A stretch of DNA of 8,752 bases from a virus (IMGVR_UViG_2698536647_000003:1-8752), one strand, 5' to 3'; shown: positions 882 to 8,566, counted from the first letter of the stretch. The notes: generated by a model from the sequence alone, not told the origin. Made by a program: numbers and translations.

Positions 882-1228
882 TTAATACATGTTGGGCAAC
901 GCCAGTGTTGGCATAGCTATAGTTGTATCAAATGCCATTGACCACCCACCCAAATAATAATTGCCGACTACTTTATTCCTTTCTGCTCTGACATTCCCAC
1001 CTGTCATTACAATTCCTTTATACCTAATATTTCCGTAACCACCAACGTGTCGACAGTTAGCCCCGGTATAAACAATCTGGCAAAATTCATCACCAATATT
1101 CAGGTTCGCATTGGCGATATTTATTGTCCCATCAAAAATGAATGGCTTCGTGCAAGTAAGAAGACGTTTGCGTTGACGATTGGTTTATTCAATCCATCAA
1201 CCAAAATACCATGTAAACGAATTGCCAT
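882..1228 (-). pseudogene. Possible frameshifted remnant of a side-tail-fibre (Stf-like) N-terminus
   Basis: Minus-strand ATG at 1228 gives MAIRLHGILVDGLNKPIVNANVFLLARSHSFLMGQ then a stop at 1121..1123. Its first ~27 residues resemble the lambda Stf N-terminus as I recall it (MAVKISGVLKDGTGKPVQNCTIQLKARR). A second frame is open from 1130 to 882 (82 codons). AT-rich, no convincing intact gene. Confidence 0.25.
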
Positions 1229-1309
1229 AACATTTCCCACTTTATTTTACTTACTCAACACAACAAGTATATTAAAATTGAACCTTGTCAACAACACAAA
1301 GGAGTCCCA

Positions 1310-1543
1310 ATGAAACTCGCTCTAATTATGCTGCCATTATGTCTGTCCCTCACTGCATGTGGTAATGGTTTAAATACCGGTAAACCAAATTCCGGTGTCA
1401 TTCCAAAACCTTTGGATCGAGATGGTAACGGTTCTTTAATTTATGATACCGAAAACCTTCCAATGACGGGGCAGTGGTGTCACGAGATTGATCACGAATA
1501 CCGACGAATCGGTAGCCCTTCTAACTGTGTTATTGACTACTAA
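1310..1543 (+). CDS. Small predicted outer-membrane lipoprotein (77 aa), moron convergent with J
   Basis: ORF-track ORF with AAGGAG at 1299..1304, 5 nt before the ATG. N-terminus MKLALIMLPLCLSLTAC has a charged n-region, hydrophobic core and lipobox L-T-A-C (Gly at +2). AT-rich relative to flanking tail genes. A perfect hairpin terminator begins 2 nt after the stop. Confidence 0.6.
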   Translation: MKLALIMLPLCLSLTACGNGLNTGKPNSGVIPKPLDRDGNGSLIYDTENLPMTGQWCHEIDHEYRRIGSPSNCVIDY

Positions 1544-1544
1544 A

Positions 1545-1572
1545 TATTAACCCCTCAAAAGAGGGGTTAATA
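1545..1572. terminator. Bidirectional intrinsic terminator between the convergent lipoprotein gene and J
   Basis: Perfect 12-bp inverted repeat TATTAACCCCTC / GAGGGGTTAATA with a 4-nt AAAA loop. It is followed by TTTT (1573..1576) on the plus strand and flanked by A/T on the minus strand. It lies between the plus-strand stop (1541..1543) and the J stop (1575..1577). Confidence 0.65.
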
Positions 1573-1574
1573 TT

Positions 1575-4500
1575 TTAACCTGTGAATGAACCAGATCCGT
1601 GTGATACTATGACAGTAGGCGAATAAATGGACGCGCCCCTGTTATTTTGAGCGGACACTTTAATACGCACTGTTACGTTTGGACCTGTTACAACCGCAGA
1701 ATGCATGATAAGTCTCTCCATGTCTTGTACGGATGAACCACTCTCATTGCCGTTAATATTGATTAGTCCTGCACCATTACCTTTAACGTTTGCTATAACA
1801 CAGACGTGTCTTGCGTGCCCAGAACTGGATGAATCCGTATAAGTTATTACCTTTTCTAAAAGGCCGTCACTAGACCGACTAACGTCAGTTCCGGTGTGCA
1901 TATTTGCAATGTCCCCGATAAAACTTTGGGCTTCCACAGTCCCTTTGAATTTACCGCTTGTTGCTTGTATCTCACCAGTAAATCTACCGCCACTAGCATA
2001 TACTACACCTCTGACGGTCACATTGTTGAATTCAGCATCTCCAGCTTTATTCAACTTCCAACCAGCAGAACCAGCTGCATAGTTGTTGGACTGGATATAG
2101 TTACCGATTTTTGCGTTCTCAATGGTGCCGTCCTGGATGAAGCTGGCCCGGATGAATGTCTGTCCATTCTGGATCACAAACGGCAAAGCCACGCTATTTC
2201 CGGCTGCCGTGGTGACGGCGAAGCGATCAGCCAGGAAGATAACCTGCGACTGCATGCCGGATGGCGTATTCTCCACGCCGATACCCATCCCCGCGGCGTA
2301 ATACTGCCCGTTGCTGGAGACACCAACTTTGATGTTGTACATCGCGCTGAGGTCGCCGTTTACGTTCGCTATAGCCTGAGCGTTGGTTGTGATGGCTGAG
2401 GTATGCCCGTTCACCGTCGCCGTGATGCTGTTTACCTGCGTGGCCATAGCCTGCTGGTAATCGGAGAACGTCTGGTTCAGGCTGTTGATGGATGCCTTGT
2501 TGCCGTTAACGTCCGTCTGCAGGCTCAGCAGCGAGCGCGCCGTTGCCTCCCTGTCGTTGACAATCACCTCATCAATACGGTCCAGATTCGCGCTGTTGCC
2601 GGCGACCGATGCAGAAAGGGTTTTACGCGTGGCCACCTGAGCGAGGTTGGCCTGGATTATCGCAATTGCAGAGTTCTTCACCCCGCCCGTCATGCCGTCC
2701 ATAGAAACGCTGATGTTGTCGATTCGCTGGCCCAGGGCGGTATCAGCCGTCGCAACGGTCTGCTCAAGCTGACTGAGTGAAGACGAAACATTCCCGACCG
2801 TGCTGGAAAGCTCATTAACGCTGGTCTGAACCTTCCCTACGTCCTGGGCATTTTTGGCGATATCTTTCGCTTGCTGCTCCAGTTCGTCGTTAGCCTGTTT
2901 GATATCGTTAGCCATGCCAGCAATTTTTTCATTGCTGTCCACAGCGTTCTCGATCAGGTCTTTGAACGTATCGGAGCCTTTCATGTCCTCCAGGATCACA
3001 TCTGTGATGTCGGAAACATCGATGCTGGCCTGTCCTCGCACCCATTCTGTGTACCCTGATTCGTTGCCGCTGCGGTCCACCAGCTGAGCGCGGTACCAGA
3101 AAATCTGCCCAGCCTTGAGGCCCATCTGCTGATATTTGCGCTGCGGATAAGGCACATCGGCCAGCAGCATCGCATCGTCCTCGGTTCCGGTCAGGCTGTA
3201 CTGAATTTCCGTCTTCAGCGTGTCGTCGGTATTCGCCGGGAATCCCCAGTTCAGCTCGATGCCGAAAACCACATTTTCAGAAGCGATGAAGCCAACCGGC
3301 TTCGGTGGATTGCCCACTTTACCCGTCAGCGTTTTCTCTTCTGAATAGCCCCATCCGGATGAAATTTCAGCGGCGTTGATGGCACGCACGCGCACCAGGT
3401 ATCGTCCCGCATAAATGCCCGGAACATCGAACGATGTGGTGGAGCTGCGCGGCACGTTAACCCAGTTCCCGTCGTTGCGGCGCCATTGTGCTTCATAGGC
3501 GATAGCGTTCTGCGCCTGGTACCAGCTCACGCGCATTGTTTCGACGCTGATATTTTGCTGAACCACGGAAAACGAGCTGATCACGATATTCGCAGGCGGC
3601 GACTGGTTGCCCGGCGGGATCACGCTCACCGGCCGTTGGTCAATGATGGCTCCGGTATCGATACGGGCATATTTATCCGGGTCGTGCCATGCGCCGGTAA
3701 TCGAGAAAGTGCCATCATTGTTATCGGAAACGCTGACAACTCGATACTGCTGCGCGTAGAGCTCGTCAGATTCAACCACCCAAACAGCTTCGGCCTGTGG
3801 CGTCTCACTGTATGCCGTGGTGACTGTGACTGATTCCCCGTTCACGGCCTGAATGGTCCTGCTCTGCGACGCTCCGGAGGGAAGGTTGAGAATAAGGCGA
3901 TCACCTGGTGCTGCATCAGCTACGCGGTCAAGTTTGATAACGCGACCGTTAACGGCGCTGATGCGGCCGCCCATAACCTTTCCGGAAAGCAGCTCGTCTG
4001 CCACGGCGATGATGTAGCCAGGCTGCGGAATGTTTCCGTCCAGCCCGACATCAAACGAAACAACGCGATCCTTGTTGTTGGTGAGAATGCCCCAGCGCCC
4101 CTTTCGGTTCGCTTCTGACTGCCTGGTGCAGCCGATGGCTGTCATTTCCAGCTGATTGAAGCCGTATCGCGCTACCAGCGCCTGCTCAAATACCGGCTCC
4201 ATCGCGTCGGCATAAGCGTTACCCGGGTCTGACCATGAAACCAGCGCTGTGGTGTAGCGGGTTTTCGTGGTGCTGCTTGAATAGGTGAAGCGACCGCCAA
4301 CAACGTTGGCGCGCGTGTAGCTGTAATCAACATCTCGGGGCATATCGGCCAGAGCAACGATCTGATCGCCTCCCCAGTACGTCATGCCACGGAATATGGC
4401 CGCAAAATCACGCAGGACTGTATAAGCGTCGTTTCGGTCCTGGATGTACACGTTGCAGGTATAACGCGGTTCGGTACCGTTGCCCCCTTTGCCGTCTGGT

Positions 4501-5465
4501 ACCATCTGATCACAATACTGGGCAACCTGATAAAGCGTCCATTTATCAATATTCGCAGCGGTCAAACGGTGCCCGAGGCCGAACCGGTCAGAAACAACCA
4601 GATCGTAAAAAATCCACGCAGGGTTATCCGTCCATGCCCACTTAAACGCACCGGTCCATGTACCGCTATAAGTGCGGGTTTCAGGGTCGTAGGTATCTGG
4701 AACGCGGATAACACGGCCGCGGGGCTCGCAGGAGATCTGCGGGATAGAGCCGTTAAACTGACTTGAATCGAATTCGATGTAGAGTAGCGCTGTGTTTGGA
4801 TATCGTAACTTGGCGTCAATCACCTCGGTGAAGCTCTGCAGCGTCATCGTGTCGCCGATCTTCGCGCTGTTGGCATCAGAGGTAATCTTACGCAGACGTA
4901 TTGTCCAGGTGCTGCCAGCTTGCGGTAAATCGATACGGTGGCTGCGCTCATAACCAGACGTCGTTTTGCCGGTCACGCTGGTATTGAGTACCGTCTGCCA
5001 TGTGCCGCCGTCCGTCTGCAGGTCAATCGCATAATTGACCGAGTAACCCACCAGATCTCCGTCGTCTTCCTGTTTGAAAAGCGAGGGCCATTTCAGACGC
5101 AGACGAACTGCTGAAAGCTGCGTATTGGTAAACGTGCGCGTCCAGGCTGTAGCGCTTGATACCTCAGTTCCCACGCTGATTTCGTTTTCGGTACCGGGAA
5201 TACCCTGAATATATTTTTGAGCCTGCGTCCCCGCGCGAAACTCCCACGTCACGCCGCTGAAGTTTTGGGAACCGTCGGCATTCTCCAGCGCCGTTCCGTC
5301 CAGGTAGATATCTTTGCCGGTTAGCTGCCCTGCGAACTCCCCTTCGCCAAGCGCAACGAGGATTTTTGCCTTCGCTACAGATTGCAGATCATCAGGCTGT
5401 TCGGTAGGAGTTCGTGAACTGGATTTGCCGCCTTTGCGCCCCTTTAATACTTTCTCTGTAGCCAT
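1575..5465 (-). CDS. J: Host specificity protein J (central tail fibre / tail tip), 1296 aa
   Basis: Single 3891-nt ORF. The N-terminal region (KGGKSSSRTPTEQPDDLQS...) and the segment YYAAGMGIGVENTPSGMQSQVIFLADRFAV... resemble lambda gpJ as I recall it. It sits after M-L-K-I in lambda order. Start ATG 5465 has only a weak GGA-type Shine-Dalgarno. Confidence 0.93.
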   Translation of the reverse strand: MATEKVLKGRKGGKSSSRTPTEQPDDLQSVAKAKILVALGEGEFAGQLTGKDIYLDGTALENADGSQNFSGVTWEFRAGTQAQKYIQGIPGTENEISVGTEVSSATAWTRTFTNTQLSAVRLRLKWPSLFKQEDDGDLVGYSVNYAIDLQTDGGTWQTVLNTSVTGKTTSGYERSHRIDLPQAGSTWTIRLRKITSDANSAKIGDTMTLQSFTEVIDAKLRYPNTALLYIEFDSSQFNGSIPQISCEPRGRVIRVPDTYDPETRTYSGTWTGAFKWAWTDNPAWIFYDLVVSDRFGLGHRLTAANIDKWTLYQVAQYCDQMVPDGKGGNGTEPRYTCNVYIQDRNDAYTVLRDFAAIFRGMTYWGGDQIVALADMPRDVDYSYTRANVVGGRFTYSSSTTKTRYTTALVSWSDPGNAYADAMEPVFEQALVARYGFNQLEMTAIGCTRQSEANRKGRWGILTNNKDRVVSFDVGLDGNIPQPGYIIAVADELLSGKVMGGRISAVNGRVIKLDRVADAAPGDRLILNLPSGASQSRTIQAVNGESVTVTTAYSETPQAEAVWVVESDELYAQQYRVVSVSDNNDGTFSITGAWHDPDKYARIDTGAIIDQRPVSVIPPGNQSPPANIVISSFSVVQQNISVETMRVSWYQAQNAIAYEAQWRRNDGNWVNVPRSSTTSFDVPGIYAGRYLVRVRAINAAEISSGWGYSEEKTLTGKVGNPPKPVGFIASENVVFGIELNWGFPANTDDTLKTEIQYSLTGTEDDAMLLADVPYPQRKYQQMGLKAGQIFWYRAQLVDRSGNESGYTEWVRGQASIDVSDITDVILEDMKGSDTFKDLIENAVDSNEKIAGMANDIKQANDELEQQAKDIAKNAQDVGKVQTSVNELSSTVGNVSSSLSQLEQTVATADTALGQRIDNISVSMDGMTGGVKNSAIAIIQANLAQVATRKTLSASVAGNSANLDRIDEVIVNDREATARSLLSLQTDVNGNKASINSLNQTFSDYQQAMATQVNSITATVNGHTSAITTNAQAIANVNGDLSAMYNIKVGVSSNGQYYAAGMGIGVENTPSGMQSQVIFLADRFAVTTAAGNSVALPFVIQNGQTFIRASFIQDGTIENAKIGNYIQSNNYAAGSAGWKLNKAGDAEFNNVTVRGVVYASGGRFTGEIQATSGKFKGTVEAQSFIGDIANMHTGTDVSRSSDGLLEKVITYTDSSSSGHARHVCVIANVKGNGAGLININGNESGSSVQDMERLIMHSAVVTGPNVTVRIKVSAQNNRGASIYSPTVIVSHGSGSFTG

Positions 5466-5476
5466 ATCGCGTCCAT

Positions 5477-5499
5477 AAAAAAAGCCACCCGAAGGCGGC
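5477..5499 (-). terminator. Intrinsic terminator on the minus strand, ending 11 nt upstream of the J start codon
   Basis: Minus-strand RNA reads GCCGCC-UUCG-GGUGGC (6-bp stem with one G.U, UUCG tetraloop) followed by seven U (plus 5477..5483 is A7). Confidence 0.6.
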
Positions 5500-5631
5500 T
5501 ACTGTTTAAATATCAGGCTGTTGGTAACAGGAATCCCTGGTTAATGTGTAAGCTCAGCCCGCCAGTGGTAGGCCTCTGGCGTTAACTGACCGAGGGATGG
5601 CTGAAGTACCCGGTTAAAATGGAGTAATAAG

Positions 5632-5847
5632 ATGATCGAAGAAAAGTTCGTGGATTTTAGATTTACTCTTGACGAAAATATTCCTAGAGAAATCGCTTTA
5701 GAAATTGTGGCTCTAAGACAAGTTACAATGGTATTAACAGCAGCATTGCCAGTAGATACAAGGCAACAAGTTATTGAAATCCTATCAAAGACAAACTCAC
5801 CACAAATTCAAGACATCGTCAAAAATATGAAGCTTATTGACGCCTAA
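5632..5847 (+). CDS. Hypothetical 71-aa protein in the I-J insertion (plus strand)
   Basis: ORF-track ORF with GGAG at 5621..5624, 7 nt before the ATG. AT-rich. Its 3' end overlaps the 3' end of the minus-strand 49-aa ORF by about 50 nt, so at most one of the two may be real. No recognisable motif. Confidence 0.35.
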   Translation: MIEEKFVDFRFTLDENIPREIALEIVALRQVTMVLTAALPVDTRQQVIEILSKTNSPQIQDIVKNMKLIDA

Positions 5848-5946
5848 TGTCATTGAAGCATCGTACTCTACGGTCTCATGCGGGACCGTTTCATTAACTT
5901 CAGATGTTTCATTTTCAGTTTTTTCTACTCGTGACTCAAAAGACAT
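5797..5946 (-). CDS. Hypothetical small acidic protein (49 aa) immediately downstream of I
   Basis: Hand translation: MSFESRVEKTENETSEVNETVPHETVEYDASMTLGVNKLHIFDDVLNLW (11 Asp/Glu against 3 Arg/Lys). AAGGAG at 5958..5953 sits 6 nt before ATG 5946 and 8 nt after the I stop. Below the ORF track's apparent length cut-off. Confidence 0.35.
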   Translation of the reverse strand: MSFESRVEKTENETSEVNETVPHETVEYDASMTLGVNKLHIFDDVLNLW

Positions 5947-5966
5947 ACACATCTCCTTAACTTAGC

Positions 5967-6554
5967 TTACTGCTGATCTTCGACATATATCCCGGCAGAA
6001 ATAATCGCTCCGCCGATTCGACGCTTACCATAAAGCAGAGGCACTGGGTAGCCTTGCGCTGCAGTGTTGGTTACCCCGCCAAACGCATACGATGCACGGT
6101 TATCTGCGCTTTGTTTGCTGGCCAGCCCTGTAGCCTGAGGGGATAACATCTGAACTACCCCCCCCAGCGTTATGGACGCACCAGCAGCAAACATCATATT
6201 GCTGGCAGCTATACTCAGACCTGGCATCCAGATCGATGCAATCACTAATACTGCGCCCAGGATAGTTTGAATCAAACCGGCTTTTTTACTCCCGATGATT
6301 ACCGGAACAATGCGAATAACCTCGCCGGTAATCGGGAAGCCAAGGTCATCCACACCGATGTTTTTTTTACCCTTAAACACGGAGTATGTGAGCCCACGGC
6401 GTTGGCTGGAAATCATAAACTGCTCAAATCCAGGAATGGTTTTTGCGAGTGCAACGCCTGCTTCGCTTACGCGGGATATCAGACGGTAGTGAACTTTGCC
6501 AAACGTTTTTCCAAGAACACTGCCTAATTCAATTCGACTCATGACCTCTTGCAT
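5967..6554 (-). CDS. I: Tail assembly protein I (ubiquitin-like N-terminal domain, hydrophobic C-terminal region)
   Basis: Resembles lambda gpI as I recall it (e.g. ...GYPVPLLYG... near the C-terminus, Gly/Ala-rich hydrophobic stretch). I trimmed the ORF-track start (6641) to ATG 6554, which follows a GGGGGGA run by 4 nt and lies downstream of the 6570..6591 terminator. An in-frame ATG at 6542 is an alternative. Confidence 0.85.
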   Translation of the reverse strand: MQEVMSRIELGSVLGKTFGKVHYRLISRVSEAGVALAKTIPGFEQFMISSQRRGLTYSVFKGKKNIGVDDLGFPITGEVIRIVPVIIGSKKAGLIQTILGAVLVIASIWMPGLSIAASNMMFAAGASITLGGVVQMLSPQATGLASKQSADNRASYAFGGVTNTAAQGYPVPLLYGKRRIGGAIISAGIYVEDQQ

Positions 6555-6569
6555 ATAATCCCCCCACGT

Positions 6570-6591
6570 AAAAAAACCGCCGAAGCGGTTT
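6570..6591 (-). terminator. Intrinsic terminator on the minus strand after the K-I lipoprotein gene
   Basis: Minus-strand RNA reads AAACCGC-UUCG-GCGGUUU followed by a U-run (plus 6570..6576 is A7). Lies between the lipoprotein stop (6616) and the I start (6554). Confidence 0.65.
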
Positions 6592-6615
6592 AATTTGGTT
6601 GATTTATTTAGGTGT

Positions 6616-7011
6616 TTATTTATTAAAATGTTTCTTTTCAATGCTCATTGCTTGATTAAAGAAATTTGTAGCATTAATTACCGCCCTTTCACAATCCTTC
6701 TGCCCATAATGTCGATGGCATTGGAATTCAGCATTTATTGCCGTATCGCCGGACTGTTTAACCTTAGATGCCCGTCCTGCAAGTTGCCTTGTATCAATAG
6801 GTGGGAATGTTGTTATAAATGTATCGTTAGCTGATTCTACTCTCATTTTTGTTGCAAACTCCAAATGCTGAGGAACCTTCGACCAAAGATAACTACATTC
6901 AGCCTCTGATGAACATGTGACAGGCTTAGTATCTAATACCGGCATTGGCCTATTATCAGCACATCCAGCGGTGGCAAGTACCACAAGACCAGAGAACAAT
7001 ATTTTTTTCAC
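6616..7011 (-). CDS. Cys-rich predicted outer-membrane lipoprotein (131 aa), moron between K and I
   Basis: ORF-track ORF starting at GTG 7011..7009 (no in-frame ATG nearby), with GGGAAG 7 nt upstream. N-terminus MKKILFSGLVVLATAGC fits a lipoprotein signal with Cys+1 and Ala at +2. The mature part has 4 further Cys. AT-rich; own terminator downstream. No homolog recognised. Confidence 0.6.
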   Translation of the reverse strand: MKKILFSGLVVLATAGCADNRPMPVLDTKPVTCSSEAECSYLWSKVPQHLEFATKMRVESANDTFITTFPPIDTRQLAGRASKVKQSGDTAINAEFQCHRHYGQKDCERAVINATNFFNQAMSIEKKHFNK

Positions 7012-7098: not shown

Positions 7099-7809
7099 TT
7101 AACAAAATACTTTGTACCGAAGTACTTTCATTGTTCTTTCCTGCCAGTAGCCACCATATGGCACGCGCTGGCTAAGATGACCGTACAAATGATGCAGTAG
7201 CATATTGCCCTCAAGCAGGATCCCCGCGTGATTCCACTTATCGGCCTGGACCTGCATGATGATGAGGTCCCCTTCCTGAGGCGGGCCATCAAACTCCCTG
7301 AATCCGCACTCGTACCAGCACTCCTGATAGAAATTGTCCGGGTAGTCGTTTTCCCACCAGGGATAATCCACCCGGTAATCGTGGAGCTCGATACCGTGGG
7401 TCTGCCGGAAATAGCTCATTACCAGACCCCAGCAATCGAAGTGGCCAAGCACGAACGGACGCTCCAGCAATGGCAGCTCCCCGCGTGGCTGAATGGTACG
7501 TAAATCCCCCTCTGGCCAGCTCACAATATGCCAGGGCAGCAGCGTTGCATCACACTGTGCCTTATCCAGCTCGCTGGCCTGCGTCGTCGCATCAGGATGG
7601 CTGTGAACAATGGCCACCACCGTCCCCCAGTCTTCTGCCGCTGCGTAATCTTCGGGGGACAGGTGAAAATGTTCAGTCGGCTCTGCTGCGAGATTACGAC
7701 AGGGAAAATAGCGCTCAACCCGGCTTTTCTGTGCCACCACGCCGCAGCACTCGCGCGGATATTCCGCTGCAGCGTGTGCCATGATGGCATCAATGGTTTT
7801 CTGGCGCAT
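7099..7809 (-). CDS. K: Tail assembly / tail tip protein K (JAMM/MPN metalloprotease-like N-domain plus NlpC/P60-like C-domain)
   Basis: JAMM motif visible: E in PRECCGVV, then HSHPDATTQASELD, which fits H-x-H-x7-S-x2-D. NlpC/P60-like Cys in GHFDCWGLV and His in WNHAGILL. Start set at ATG 7809 (protein MRQKTIDAIM...) with AGGAG 5 nt upstream; the L stop TGA (7813..7811) is 1 nt before it. The ORF-track start at 7845 is probably an upstream non-ATG artefact. Confidence 0.9.
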   Translation of the reverse strand: MRQKTIDAIMAHAAAEYPRECCGVVAQKSRVERYFPCRNLAAEPTEHFHLSPEDYAAAEDWGTVVAIVHSHPDATTQASELDKAQCDATLLPWHIVSWPEGDLRTIQPRGELPLLERPFVLGHFDCWGLVMSYFRQTHGIELHDYRVDYPWWENDYPDNFYQECWYECGFREFDGPPQEGDLIIMQVQADKWNHAGILLEGNMLLHHLYGHLSQRVPYGGYWQERTMKVLRYKVFC

Positions 7810-7810
7810 A

Positions 7811-8566
7811 TCAACTCCTGATAAGAGATGTACCGGGGAAACCACCGAACGGCAGCTCGTTGCTGTATCCGTGCCGGAGCTTGCAGGCCGTCAGCGTGCC
7901 GTTGCATACATCCAGCGAGGGATCGTCAACCGGATTATTGTTTTTGTCGAAATAGCGCGTTCCGGCATAGTCGCAGCCGTCGCCGGTACGATATTTATTC
8001 CGGATGCACCAGGTACACAGGGAATGAAGCTGTCGCGTCGGGATCATTTGCCCCTGCAGGTCCATCGGGCTGGATAGTGTGAACTCAACAACTTCATTGG
8101 TTTCACTGCTCTTTGCATCGATGTAGAAAACCTTCAGCTTCTCCTGGGTCGGATCGGCTGTCGGATTGCCTCCGGTGAAGTTTCTCGCATCAAGATACTT
8201 ACCAAGGGTGTCATGTATCGTCACCTTCGCCTGCAGCATATCGTCGTAAGCCAGGCAAAGCGCGGTGATCGAACTGTCGAGGTTAGCAACCGAAAGTTTT
8301 GGCTGGGCACTACTTCCCGAGGTTGAAGCTTCGATCCCATCAATCTGGCATGGCCACGCTTTATACTCCTCACCCTGCCACCAGATAGATTTTGCTGGCA
8401 GTTTATTTTCATCACCGCCAGCAGCCTCAATCTCTTCCGGGGTATGCGCGATGTTATGTGCGTGGAAGCGGAGTACATCTGACATACCGAACGCTGTGCC
8501 ATCGACAGAAAAAAGCCGGACTTCATTGCCCGGCTCGAGTTTTTGATAATCAGCATTAAGACTCAT
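7811..8566 (-). CDS. L: Tail tip protein L (251 aa)
   Basis: Position between M and K. C-terminal Cys cluster (LCTWCIRNKYRTGDGCDYAG ... CNGTLTACKLRHG) resembles the conserved Cys pattern of lambda gpL as I recall it. The ATG at 8566..8564 overlaps the M stop in an ATGA arrangement. Confidence 0.9.
   Translation of the reverse strand: MSLNADYQKLEPGNEVRLFSVDGTAFGMSDVLRFHAHNIAHTPEEIEAAGGDENKLPAKSIWWQGEEYKAWPCQIDGIEASTSGSSAQPKLSVANLDSSITALCLAYDDMLQAKVTIHDTLGKYLDARNFTGGNPTADPTQEKLKVFYIDAKSSETNEVVEFTLSSPMDLQGQMIPTRQLHSLCTWCIRNKYRTGDGCDYAGTRYFDKNNNPVDDPSLDVCNGTLTACKLRHGYSNELPFGGFPGTSLIRS

What the first reader, a model, noticed from the sequence alone, without database searches (positions are those of the whole stretch)
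1310..1543. 77-aa lipoprotein in the lom position, convergent with J, candidate Cor/Llp-like exclusion factor
Lambda carries lom immediately distal to J. Here that slot holds an AT-rich cassette with a small lipoprotein gene in the opposite orientation (lipobox LTAC, mature part about 60 aa with two further Cys). The size, lipidation and location next to the host-range gene are what I would expect of a receptor-blocking superinfection exclusion protein. I cannot confirm sequence similarity to Cor or Llp from memory.
Basis: partly seen in the sequence, partly recalled or inferred. Interest (0 to 1): 0.55.

Follow-up and report, generated by a model that had tools for sequence, protein, structure and literature searches.

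The report
Phage lipoprotein that likely blocks LamB
This small prophage gene next to the host-range gene J is a real, strongly conserved outer-membrane lipoprotein whose tested relative stops other LamB-using phages (including lambda) from infecting, so it is an ordinary but useful new member of a recently recognised family.

Summary
Window 1310-1543(+) encodes a 77-aa lipoprotein precursor (lipobox LTAC, 61-aa mature part, Cys57 and Cys73) convergent with a 1296-aa J gene. It has its own promoter-like site and a bidirectional terminator, and sits in an AT-rich cassette that phage HK97 lacks.

It is not a Cor/Llp family member. Cor and Llp fall in phrog_1119, while this protein falls in phrog_12984. 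There is no BLASTP or profile similarity beyond the signal peptide, and the cysteine spacing differs.

The functional guess is supported by homology. The protein is 51% identical to the mEpimmI "type-C" Lpp, which was shown experimentally to exclude LamB-dependent phages and lambda. It is 83-96% identical to the lipoprotein of BASEL phages Bas21-24, all of which use LamB. The adjacent J tip is 93.5% identical to that of LamB-using HK97. In 33 of 35 loci the gene lies convergent downstream of a J gene with a homologous tip, across at least four unrelated phage backbones. dN/dS is 0.02-0.10.

Most likely it is an outer-membrane, periplasm-facing lipoprotein that neutralises LamB as a phage receptor. 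How it does this is unknown. The identical gene sits in the E. coli Nissle 1917 lambdoid prophage, which makes that strain's unexplained lambda resistance testable. Verdict: new member of a known kind, with moderate interest.

The parts
1310..1543 (+). Lipoprotein gene: 77-aa precursor and 61-aa mature protein, of the phrog_12984 / mEpimmI type-C Lpp family
   Evidence: ORF. Full-length match to phrog_12984, E=1.3e-56. 51% identity to the experimentally tested Lpp type. dN/dS 0.02-0.10.
1310..1360 (+). Signal peptide (codons 1-16) and lipobox L-T-A-C, with the acylated Cys17 codon at 1358-1360. The +2 residue is Gly, which predicts outer-membrane sorting.
   Evidence: Read from the sequence. 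C17 is invariant in 21 homologues, and none has Asp at +2. The Lol +2 sorting rule comes from established knowledge.
1385..1540 (+). Conserved core PNSGVIP...DTEKLPMTGQWC(57)HE.DH..RRIGSPSNC(73)V.DY. The invariant Cys pair probably forms a 16-residue disulfide loop.
   Evidence: Invariant columns in alignment A1. The disulfide is inferred, not shown.
1246..1273 (+). Sigma-70 promoter-like site: TTTACT, 16-nt spacer, TATATT
   Evidence: Consensus scan. TATATT is the same in the Nissle prophage, 9g, Bas21 and Bas22 (its first four bases are invariant across all six aligned loci, mEp044 included), and the -35 hexamer is TTGACT in Bas21 and Bas22. Activity has not been shown.
1299..1304 (+). Shine-Dalgarno AAGGAG, 5 nt upstream of the ATG
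   Evidence: Sequence. Conserved in the phage copies.
1542..1575 (.). Bidirectional intrinsic-terminator-like hairpin (15-bp stem, 4-nt loop) that fills the spacer between the two stop codons
   Evidence: z about -5.8 and -5.9. Terminator scan. The equivalent 'H1 loop' is annotated in the phage 9g record.
1575..5465 (-). J (central tail fibre / host specificity protein), 1296 aa
   Evidence: 32% identity to lambda J over about 885 aa.
1578..2177 (-). J C-terminal 200 aa (receptor-binding tip), HK97/LamB type. It is AT-richer than the rest of J and travels with the lipoprotein gene.
   Evidence: Identity is 93.5% to HK97 J, 89% to 9g, 73.5% to Bas22 and 52-63% to the mEp phages. Phage 9g shares window 1142-2141 at 89% DNA identity. 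A homologous tip lies convergent to the lipoprotein in 33 of 35 loci.
886..1573 (.). Cassette that replaces a 126-bp J-stf spacer of HK97. The mobile core shared with virulent Queuovirinae is about 1170-1577.
   Evidence: Pairwise blastn boundaries. GC 0.35-0.43.
1121..1228 (-). 35-codon stump of a Queuovirinae-type lateral tail fibre gene (85% identical to the 9g N-terminus, then a stop). It is a relic of the cassette transfer.
   Evidence: tblastn and frame translation.

Best explanation
The gene is a moron-like, independently transcribed superinfection-exclusion (lytic/lysogenic conversion) gene.

Proposed pathway:
1. The precursor is exported. It is lipidated on Cys17 and cleaved by signal peptidase II. 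[quoted passage not shown]
2. The 61-aa mature peptide has a Gly/Asn-rich tether and a conserved core, probably clasped by a Cys57-Cys73 disulfide.
3. This peptide binds the periplasmic side of the maltoporin LamB and makes LamB unusable as a phage receptor or DNA conduit.
4. A lysogen thereby becomes resistant to phages that use LamB: the prophage's own kind, HK97-like phages, LamB-using Queuovirinae and Dhillonvirus-type phages, and probably lambda.
5. In virulent carriers the same activity would prevent superinfection and stop progeny being wasted on LamB in cell debris.

What is shown here: the gene anatomy, family membership, purifying selection, tight linkage to a LamB-type J tip, and absence from HK97.
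What is shown by others for homologues: exclusion of LamB phages by the 51%-identical Lpp010, and LamB dependence of Bas21-24, HK97 and the mEp phages.
What is inferred: that this orthologue has the same activity, that LamB is the direct target, that it acts from the periplasmic face, and whether adsorption or DNA ejection is the blocked step.
For: 1. Homology to a tested excluder. 51% identity and E=3e-30 to mEp044 Lpp, which differs by one residue from Lpp010. Lpp010 excluded mEp010, mEp044, mEp554 and lambda (PMC11893012). Those phages need LamB. Both proteins hit phrog_12984.
2. Receptor correlation. The BASEL phages carrying an 83-96% identical copy (Bas21-24) all have LamB as terminal receptor (S5 table). 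The LptD users Bas19, Bas20 and Bas25 are not among the listed hits.
3. The adjacent J tip is 93.5% identical to HK97 J, and HK97 adsorbs to LamB.
4. Synteny. 33 of 35 loci have a homologous J tip convergent to the gene. The gap is 35-65 nt in most. This holds across lambdoid, Queuovirinae, EP23-like and mEpimmI backbones whose J cores are 23-97% identical or undetectable.
5. Lambda's distal J domain is unrelated in sequence, yet lambda is excluded by Lpp010. The known inner-membrane requirements also differ: PtsG for HK97 (title of Cumby 2015, cited) and ManYZ for lambda (my knowledge). So the shared component, LamB, is the likeliest target.
6. Strong purifying selection on the mature part (dN/dS 0.02-0.06), with an invariant lipobox Cys and Cys pair.
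7. Moron anatomy. A conserved promoter-like site, a bidirectional terminator, low GC, and absence from HK97 at the same junction.
8. Precedents for periplasmic-face exclusion lipoproteins: Llp-FhuA and Rtp45-LptDE.
9. E. coli Nissle 1917 carries the identical protein and resists lambda through an unidentified prophage-linked block to DNA entry.
Against: - No assay exists for this orthologue. Identity to the tested protein is only 51%, although the C-terminal core is much more conserved.
- No direct LamB-lipoprotein interaction has been shown for any family member.
- Lpp010 failed to exclude LamB-dependent mEp013, so exclusion is not simply loss of LamB function.
- In Nissle, lambda still binds LamB. 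If the gene is expressed there, it does not abolish lambda adsorption, unlike Llp and Rtp45.
- LamB has no plug domain or known allostery (a point raised in PMC9586334), so the periplasmic-face mechanism lacks an obvious route.
- AF2 models were low-confidence (pLDDT 58 and 54), so there is no structural support.
- Expression from the predicted promoter in a lysogen is untested.
Confidence: 0.7

Rival explanations
1. Post-adsorption block. The lipoprotein does not stop the phage binding LamB. Instead it blocks a later step, such as tail-tip insertion or DNA ejection through or beside the LamB channel, or access to a periplasmic factor. Excluded phages would then adsorb and be wasted.
For: Nissle carries the identical gene, adsorbs lambda in a LamB-dependent way and yet is not infected. 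The authors infer an unknown factor preventing DNA entry. Lpp010 excludes lambda although lambda's distal J domain is unrelated. LamB has no known allostery to transmit a periplasmic signal to the surface loops.
Against: Both structurally solved precedents (Llp, Rtp45) act by abolishing RBP binding. Nissle has other barriers, and expression of the gene there is unknown. For a virulent phage, letting progeny adsorb irreversibly to debris would be costly, which argues for a block of binding.
Confidence: 0.2
2. The target is not LamB but another envelope component used after the receptor, such as an inner-membrane sugar transporter or a periplasmic chaperone. This would resemble HK97 gp15 or DicB.
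For: No direct LamB interaction is shown. mEp013 is LamB-dependent yet escapes Lpp010.
Against: The known inner-membrane requirements differ between lambda and HK97, yet the family is linked to LamB-type tips in four backbones. The sorting signal predicts an outer-membrane rather than inner-membrane location (+2 rule). There is tight physical linkage to the J tip rather than to the tape-measure gene.
Confidence: 0.07
3. The lipoprotein is surface-exposed and masks the extracellular face of LamB. PMC9586334 raised this as a possibility for non-TBDT receptors.
For: That paper suggests surface flipping for LptD-type SE lipoproteins because allostery is absent.
Against: The LptD case was later solved and is periplasmic. 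A 61-aa monomer would have to mask RBDs as different as those of lambda and HK97-type tips. No surface-export signal is evident.
Confidence: 0.05
4. An unrelated moron function (for example a serum-resistance or adhesion lipoprotein like Bor, or a spanin-like lysis component), or a gene that is inactive in this prophage.
For: Lambda's moron at this position (lom) is a virulence-type gene. The only other weak PHROG hits are signal-peptide-level matches, including an Rz-like spanin at E=0.25.
Against: The gene is also carried by strictly virulent phages of lab E. coli K-12, where host-virulence functions make little sense. It is not near lysis genes. It has no similarity to Lom. It is intact, identical to the Nissle copy, and under strong purifying selection.
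Confidence: 0.03

Closest known systems
mEpimmI type-C Lpp (Lpp010 = mEp010 gp116; mEp044_110), PMC11893012
   Same: Same protein family: phrog_12984, 51% identity, and the same core motif and Cys pair. Same position, convergent just downstream of a J gene with a homologous tip. Lpp010 was shown experimentally to exclude LamB-dependent phages and lambda.
   Different: The N-terminal third of the mature protein and the signal peptide differ. The host element here is a lambdoid HK97-like prophage, not an mEpimmI phage. The J tip is only 52-63% identical. The present orthologue is untested.
Unnamed 'lipoprotein' downstream of gpJ in LamB-using Queuovirinae (CAjan, Seurat, 9g gp69, Bas21-24) and EP23-like phages
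   Same: Orthologues at 72-96% identity with the same promoter, SD and terminator cassette. Flagged as a likely SE lipoprotein for Bas23 in PMC9586334.
   Different: Those carriers are virulent phages. In Bas21 and CAjan the J tip is only about 40% identical although the lipoprotein is 96% identical. None has been tested experimentally.
T5 Llp and the Cor family (HK022, phi80, T1, N15), phrog_1119
   Same: A 77-aa precursor, about 61-aa mature outer-membrane lipoprotein with one internal Cys pair, encoded beside the receptor-binding gene and serving receptor-level exclusion.
   Different: No sequence or profile similarity beyond the signal peptide. The Cys spacing differs: mature C11/12 and C58/60 against C41 and C57 here. 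Their target is the TonB-dependent transporter FhuA, acting through plug-mediated reverse allostery, which LamB cannot offer.
Rtp45 (phage Rtp), the LptD-directed SE lipoprotein
   Same: A 76-aa precursor lipoprotein encoded downstream of J on the opposite strand. It targets a non-TBDT receptor from the periplasmic membrane interface.
   Different: Only a weak hhalign match (prob 85%, low per-column confidence in the mature part) in which the cysteines do not align. It is co-encoded with a separate RBP (rtp44), whereas here the J tip itself is the presumed RBP.
Lambda Lom
   Same: Occupies the same slot between J and stf and is a moron.
   Different: A 206-aa protein annotated as an outer-membrane protein (by my knowledge an Ail/Lom-family beta-barrel rather than a lipoprotein), co-oriented with J, with no similarity.

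Membership tests
phrog_12984 / mEpimmI type-C Lpp (LamB-linked exclusion lipoprotein) | Full-length sequence/profile match | tested here: met
   phrog_12984 E=1.3e-56, positions 1-77 of 77. mEp044 Lpp hits the same PHROG at E=1.8e-26. Pairwise identity 51%, E=3e-30.
phrog_12984 / mEpimmI type-C Lpp (LamB-linked exclusion lipoprotein) | Lipobox with Cys, no Asp at +2, and conserved core PNSGV.P...GQWC...R.G..NC..Y | tested here: met
   Invariant columns of the 21-sequence alignment A1 include C17, C57, C73 and the motif residues.
phrog_12984 / mEpimmI type-C Lpp (LamB-linked exclusion lipoprotein) | Encoded convergent and immediately downstream of a J gene carrying an HK97/LamB-type C-terminal tip | tested here: met
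   In the window the spacer is 31 nt and the tip is 93.5% identical to HK97. The same arrangement is found in 33 of 35 loci.
phrog_12984 / mEpimmI type-C Lpp (LamB-linked exclusion lipoprotein) | Expression excludes LamB-dependent phages | not testable with these tools
   Shown only for Lpp010 (PMC11893012). This needs a plating assay.
Cor/Llp family (phrog_1119) | Sequence/profile similarity of the mature domain | tested here: not met
   BLASTP finds no alignment to HK022 Cor or T5 Llp. The window protein does not hit phrog_1119, whereas Cor and Llp do. hhalign aligns only 19-27 signal-peptide columns.
Cor/Llp family (phrog_1119) | Cys pattern: mature Cys1, plus Cys about 11-12 paired with Cys about 58-60 | tested here: not met
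   Cor and Llp sequences compared with mature Cys1, Cys41 and Cys57 here.
Cor/Llp family (phrog_1119) | Linked to a FhuA-binding receptor-binding protein | tested here: not met
   The adjacent J tip is HK97-type (LamB), and carriers Bas21-24 use LamB.
Cor/Llp family (phrog_1119) | Shared fold with Llp | tested here: inconclusive
   Two AF2 models had pLDDT 57.9 and 53.8, too low for a fold search. The PDB sequence and profile searches found nothing.
Rtp45-type LptD exclusion lipoproteins | Sequence/profile similarity, including the Cys30-Cys38 pair | tested here: inconclusive
   hhalign prob 84.7% over 65 columns, with low per-column confidence in the mature part. The cysteines do not align.
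Moron (independently transcribed insert in a late operon, in the sense of Juhala/Hendrix) | Own promoter and terminator, deviant GC, absent from a close relative at the same junction | tested here: met
   Conserved promoter-like site, hairpin, GC 0.35-0.43 against 0.55-0.60, and HK97 has a 126-bp spacer instead. Promoter activity itself was not tested.
Lambda Lom (Ail/Lom outer-membrane protein family) | Sequence similarity | tested here: not met
   BLASTP E=33. No Pfam hit.

The most novel reading that the evidence does not exclude
The lipoprotein may work in a way not yet described for exclusion lipoproteins. Instead of abolishing binding of the receptor-binding protein, as Llp and Rtp45 do, it would leave LamB able to bind phage but block channel use or DNA ejection from the periplasmic side. 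The lysogen would then become a phage sink. This would also identify the 'unidentified prophage factor' behind E. coli Nissle 1917's complete lambda resistance and its LamB-dependent inactivation of lambda.
Probability: 0.2. Interest if true: 0.65.

Novelty: new member of a known kind. Interest (0 to 1): 0.4.

Why it matters
LamB is the textbook phage receptor, yet how a small periplasmic lipoprotein could neutralise a plug-less porin is explicitly an open question (PMC9586334). The only experimental evidence for the family is a single plating assay on a 51%-identical protein.

This locus gives three things:
- A lambdoid-prophage orthologue. The mEpimmI authors state that no lipoprotein from a lambdoid phage is known to exclude lambda.
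- A clean natural comparison, because HK97 has the same J tip without the cassette.
- A direct candidate for the unexplained lambda resistance of the probiotic Nissle 1917, which carries the identical protein.

The cassette also moves between virulent and temperate phages together with the J tip or separately from it. This matters for predicting receptor use, and cross-resistance in phage-therapy cocktails, from sequence alone.

Tried and rejected
- Pfam, NCBIfam and PADLOC scans of the protein gave no hits. PDB sequence and profile searches gave only noise.
- Two AlphaFold2 runs, on the full precursor and on the mature part with a 21-sequence alignment, gave pLDDT 57.9 and 53.8. I therefore ran no fold search, because the matches would be meaningless.
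- A profile search of 1.84 billion representatives added only two small relatives. It also hit two giant repeat proteins, which I inspected and rejected as compositional artefacts.
- A scan of one genome per species found no relative, so the family is rare outside phages and some E. coli prophages.
- Megablast of the odd L037 locus against phages gave no match.
- The 9g genome paper and an LPS-profiling paper from the same field do not discuss the gene or 9g's receptor.
- I considered and rejected three readings. Rz1/o-spanin: only a signal-peptide-level hit at E=0.25, and the gene is not in a lysis cassette. Lom or Bor-like virulence protein: no similarity, and the gene is present in virulent K-12 phages. 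Virion component: opposite strand, own terminator, lipoprotein signal.
- The + strand ORF 1047-1313 (88 aa, GTG) has no family hit and overlaps the tail-fibre relics on the other strand, so I treat it as spurious.

Full report
**1. Observation**

The window contains the ORF exactly as described. It runs 1310-1543(+), starts with ATG and has 77 codons. An AAGGAG Shine-Dalgarno lies at 1299-1304.

The product is MKLALIMLPLCLSLTAC|GNGLNTGKPNSGVIPKPLDRDGNGSLIYDTENLPMTGQWCHEIDHEYRRIGSPSNCVIDY. It has a short basic and hydrophobic signal peptide and a canonical lipobox L-T-A-C. The mature part is 61 residues and has two further cysteines.

The 1296-aa ORF at 1575-5465(-) is J (phrog_31 and phrog_2589; 32% identity to lambda J over about 885 residues). 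The two genes are convergent. Their 31-nt spacer is entirely a 15-bp-stem hairpin at 1542-1575, which folds equally well on both strands (-20.9 and -22.0 kcal/mol, z about -5.8 and -5.9).

GC drops to 0.35-0.43 across the cassette, against 0.55-0.60 in the body of J. Lambda has lom in the equivalent slot between J and stf.

**2. It is a real, constrained gene**

The protein matches phrog_12984 ('lipoprotein') over its full length at E=1.3e-56. It has homologues in 44 phage records.

Against the copies in 9g, Bas21, Bas22 and two IMG/VR contigs, dS reaches 0.4-1.9 while dN stays at 0.02-0.19. That gives dN/dS of 0.07-0.10 overall and 0.02-0.06 for the mature part.

In a 21-sequence alignment the lipobox Cys, both later Cys and the motifs PNSGV.P, GQWC and R.G..NC..Y are invariant. 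No member has Asp at +2. By the Lol sorting rule (established knowledge) this predicts an outer-membrane location.

**3. Family and distribution**

The family is very narrow. There are 22 clusters among 5.8 billion proteins. A profile search of 1.84 billion representatives added only two further small relatives. No relative was found in a one-genome-per-species scan.

The cassette is present in 42 of 5426 complete E. coli genomes, and many of those are Nissle 1917 derivatives. Carriers include:
- virulent Seuratvirus and Nonagvirus phages (CAjan, Seurat, 9g, Bas21-24; 83-96% identity);
- EP23/PNS1-type phages (about 72%);
- an Enterobacter phage (56%);
- temperate mEpimmI phages (51%).

**4. 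Context and mobility**

Pairwise blastn gives clean boundaries.
- HK97 matches the window at 601-885 (stf 5' end, 96%) and at 1574-2700 (J 3' end, 88.6%). It has a 126-bp spacer where the window has 886-1573.
- Phage 9g shares 1142-2141 at 89%. This covers the upstream region, the gene, the hairpin and the last 189 codons of J.
- Bas21 shares only 1170-1577 at 88.8% (plus a 66-nt match at 1899-1964). This covers the upstream region, the gene and the hairpin.

The conserved upstream block holds a sigma-70-like site: TTTACT, a 16-nt spacer and TATATT at 1246-1273. The TATATT hexamer is the same in the Nissle prophage, 9g, Bas21 and Bas22, its first four bases are invariant in all six aligned loci, and the -35 hexamer is TTGACT in Bas21 and Bas22.

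On the minus strand, 1121-1228 encodes a 35-codon stump. It is 85% identical to the N-terminus of the 9g lateral tail fibre and then hits a stop. This is a scar showing that the block came from, or passed through, a Queuovirinae-type context before landing upstream of an HK97-like stf gene, which starts at 804(-).

Across 35 loci, 33 have a J gene with a homologous C-terminal tip convergent to the lipoprotein gene. The gap is 35-65 nt in most. The rest of J is anywhere from 97% identical to unrecognisable. The lipoprotein is more conserved than the tip: Bas21 has 96% against about 40% identity.

**5. What it does: evidence from relatives**

- mEp044_110 is 51% identical (E=3e-30). It fits the published description of the mEpimmI type-C Lpp residue for residue.
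- The near-identical Lpp010, expressed from a plasmid, excluded mEp010, mEp044, mEp554 and lambda but not mEp013. All four of these mEp phages require LamB (PMC11893012).
- Bas21, 22, 23 and 24 all have LamB as terminal receptor (BASEL S5 table; complementation for Bas22). The LptD users of the same subfamily are not among the listed hits.
- The window's J tip is 93.5% identical to that of HK97, which adsorbs to LamB (PMC6832061).
- Lambda J aligns with this J only up to residue about 1186. The distal ~110 residues show no detectable similarity. Exclusion of lambda by Lpp010 therefore points to the shared receptor rather than to a particular tip.
- PMC9586334 had already remarked that LamB-targeting phages such as Bas23 'likely do have SE lipoproteins', and asked how they could work without allostery.

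**6. Mechanism proposed**

The first steps follow from the sequence and established rules. The LamB target follows from the correlations above. The periplasmic-face topology is by analogy with Llp-FhuA and Rtp45-LptDE.

Which step is blocked is open. Two facts suggest the block may come after adsorption:
- E. coli Nissle 1917 encodes the identical protein next to J in its defective lambdoid prophage between yecD and yecN.
- That strain binds lambda through LamB yet is not infected, and its repressor gives only partial protection. The authors postulate another prophage factor that prevents DNA entry (PMC5987069).

This is circumstantial, because expression of the gene in Nissle is unknown and other barriers exist. 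The escape of mEp013 also shows that the effect is not simple receptor removal.

**7. Comparison with known families**

HK022 Cor, T5 Llp and Rtp45 are all 76-77-aa precursors encoded beside the receptor-recognition gene.

Cor and Llp share phrog_1119, and the window protein does not hit it. BLASTP finds nothing. hhalign aligns only the signal peptide. The cysteine topology also differs.

The Rtp45 alignment is longer but of low confidence, and its cysteines do not align. Lom is unrelated.

So the protein works like Cor, Llp and Rtp45 but belongs to a separate family, which is defined by phrog_12984 and the type-C Lpp.

**8. Structure**

Two AF2 predictions were of low confidence (pLDDT 57.9 and 53.8). 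I therefore ran no fold search. The peptide may only order itself on its target.

**9. Verdict**

The functional interpretation is supported by homology and context, with two corrections: the protein is not a Cor/Llp relative, and its predicted target is LamB.

It is a new member, the lambdoid-prophage orthologue, of a recently recognised and barely characterised kind. Interest is moderate. The mechanism on a plug-less porin and the Nissle link are the parts worth an experiment.

Noticed in passing
window 6616-7011 (-): A second small lipoprotein-like ORF (131 aa, signal peptide ending LATAGC) is inserted in an AT-rich patch between the K gene (NlpC/P60 + JAB, 7099-7845) and the I gene (5967-6641). 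It hits phrog_16082 (unknown function) and has only two weak (~29%) phage matches. The Nissle prophage has K overlapping I with no insert.
   Followed up: partly
window 5466-5966, ORF 5632-5847 (+): An AT-rich gap of about 500 bp between I and J holds a 71-aa ORF on the opposite strand (phrog_6806, unknown function). The Nissle prophage has only 42 nt here. Only 1 of 5426 complete E. coli genomes (EC23HZZ201, pig) carries both this insert and the K-I insert. This tail operon therefore holds three separate inserted small genes.
   Followed up: partly
window 1121-1228 (-) and 882-1139 (-): A 35-codon stump is 85% identical to the N-terminus of the 9g lateral tail fibre and is followed by a stop. 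Next to it is an 85-codon ORF annotated 'DUF6453' in Nissle that begins with ATT and has no canonical start. Both look like relics left by the recombination that brought the cassette in.
   Followed up: partly
L037:2989-3207 and L038 (IMG/VR contigs): A divergent homologue (52%) has an ordinary signal peptide (...NAFA|NT) and no lipobox cysteine, so it is presumably soluble in the periplasm. It is not next to a J gene. It lies among small AT-rich genes of an unidentified phage that has no megablast match in the phage collection.
   Followed up: partly
P0014 (E. coli chromosomes, 29 contigs): A frameshifted variant of the lipoprotein is identical to the window protein up to residue 54 and out of frame after that. 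It is recorded on 29 contigs, so some prophage copies are decaying.
   Followed up: no
window 1310-1543 versus 1578-2177; L001, L013, L014: The lipoprotein is much more conserved than the adjacent J tip. In Bas21, CAjan and slur01 it is 96% identical against about 40% for the tip, and in L013 99% against 51%. HK97 has the tip (93.5%) but no lipoprotein. The two parts therefore recombine independently, as expected if the tip tracks variable LamB surface loops and the lipoprotein tracks a conserved feature.
   Followed up: partly
L039 (E. coli Nissle 1917, yecD-yecN prophage): The Nissle lambdoid prophage carrying the identical lipoprotein has truncated portal and tail-assembly-T genes and a frameshifted DUF968 gene, so it is defective. 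Bury et al. 2018 describe a lambdoid 'prophage 3' that could not be induced and attribute lambda resistance partly to it. Whether that prophage is this one could not be verified by locus tag.
   Followed up: partly
L004:4739-4972, L006:35430-35663, L041:7688-7918, window 1310-1543: Cor (HK022), Llp (T5), Rtp45 and this protein are all 76-77-aa precursors despite lacking detectable homology. This looks like convergence on one size for receptor-blocking lipoproteins.
   Followed up: no
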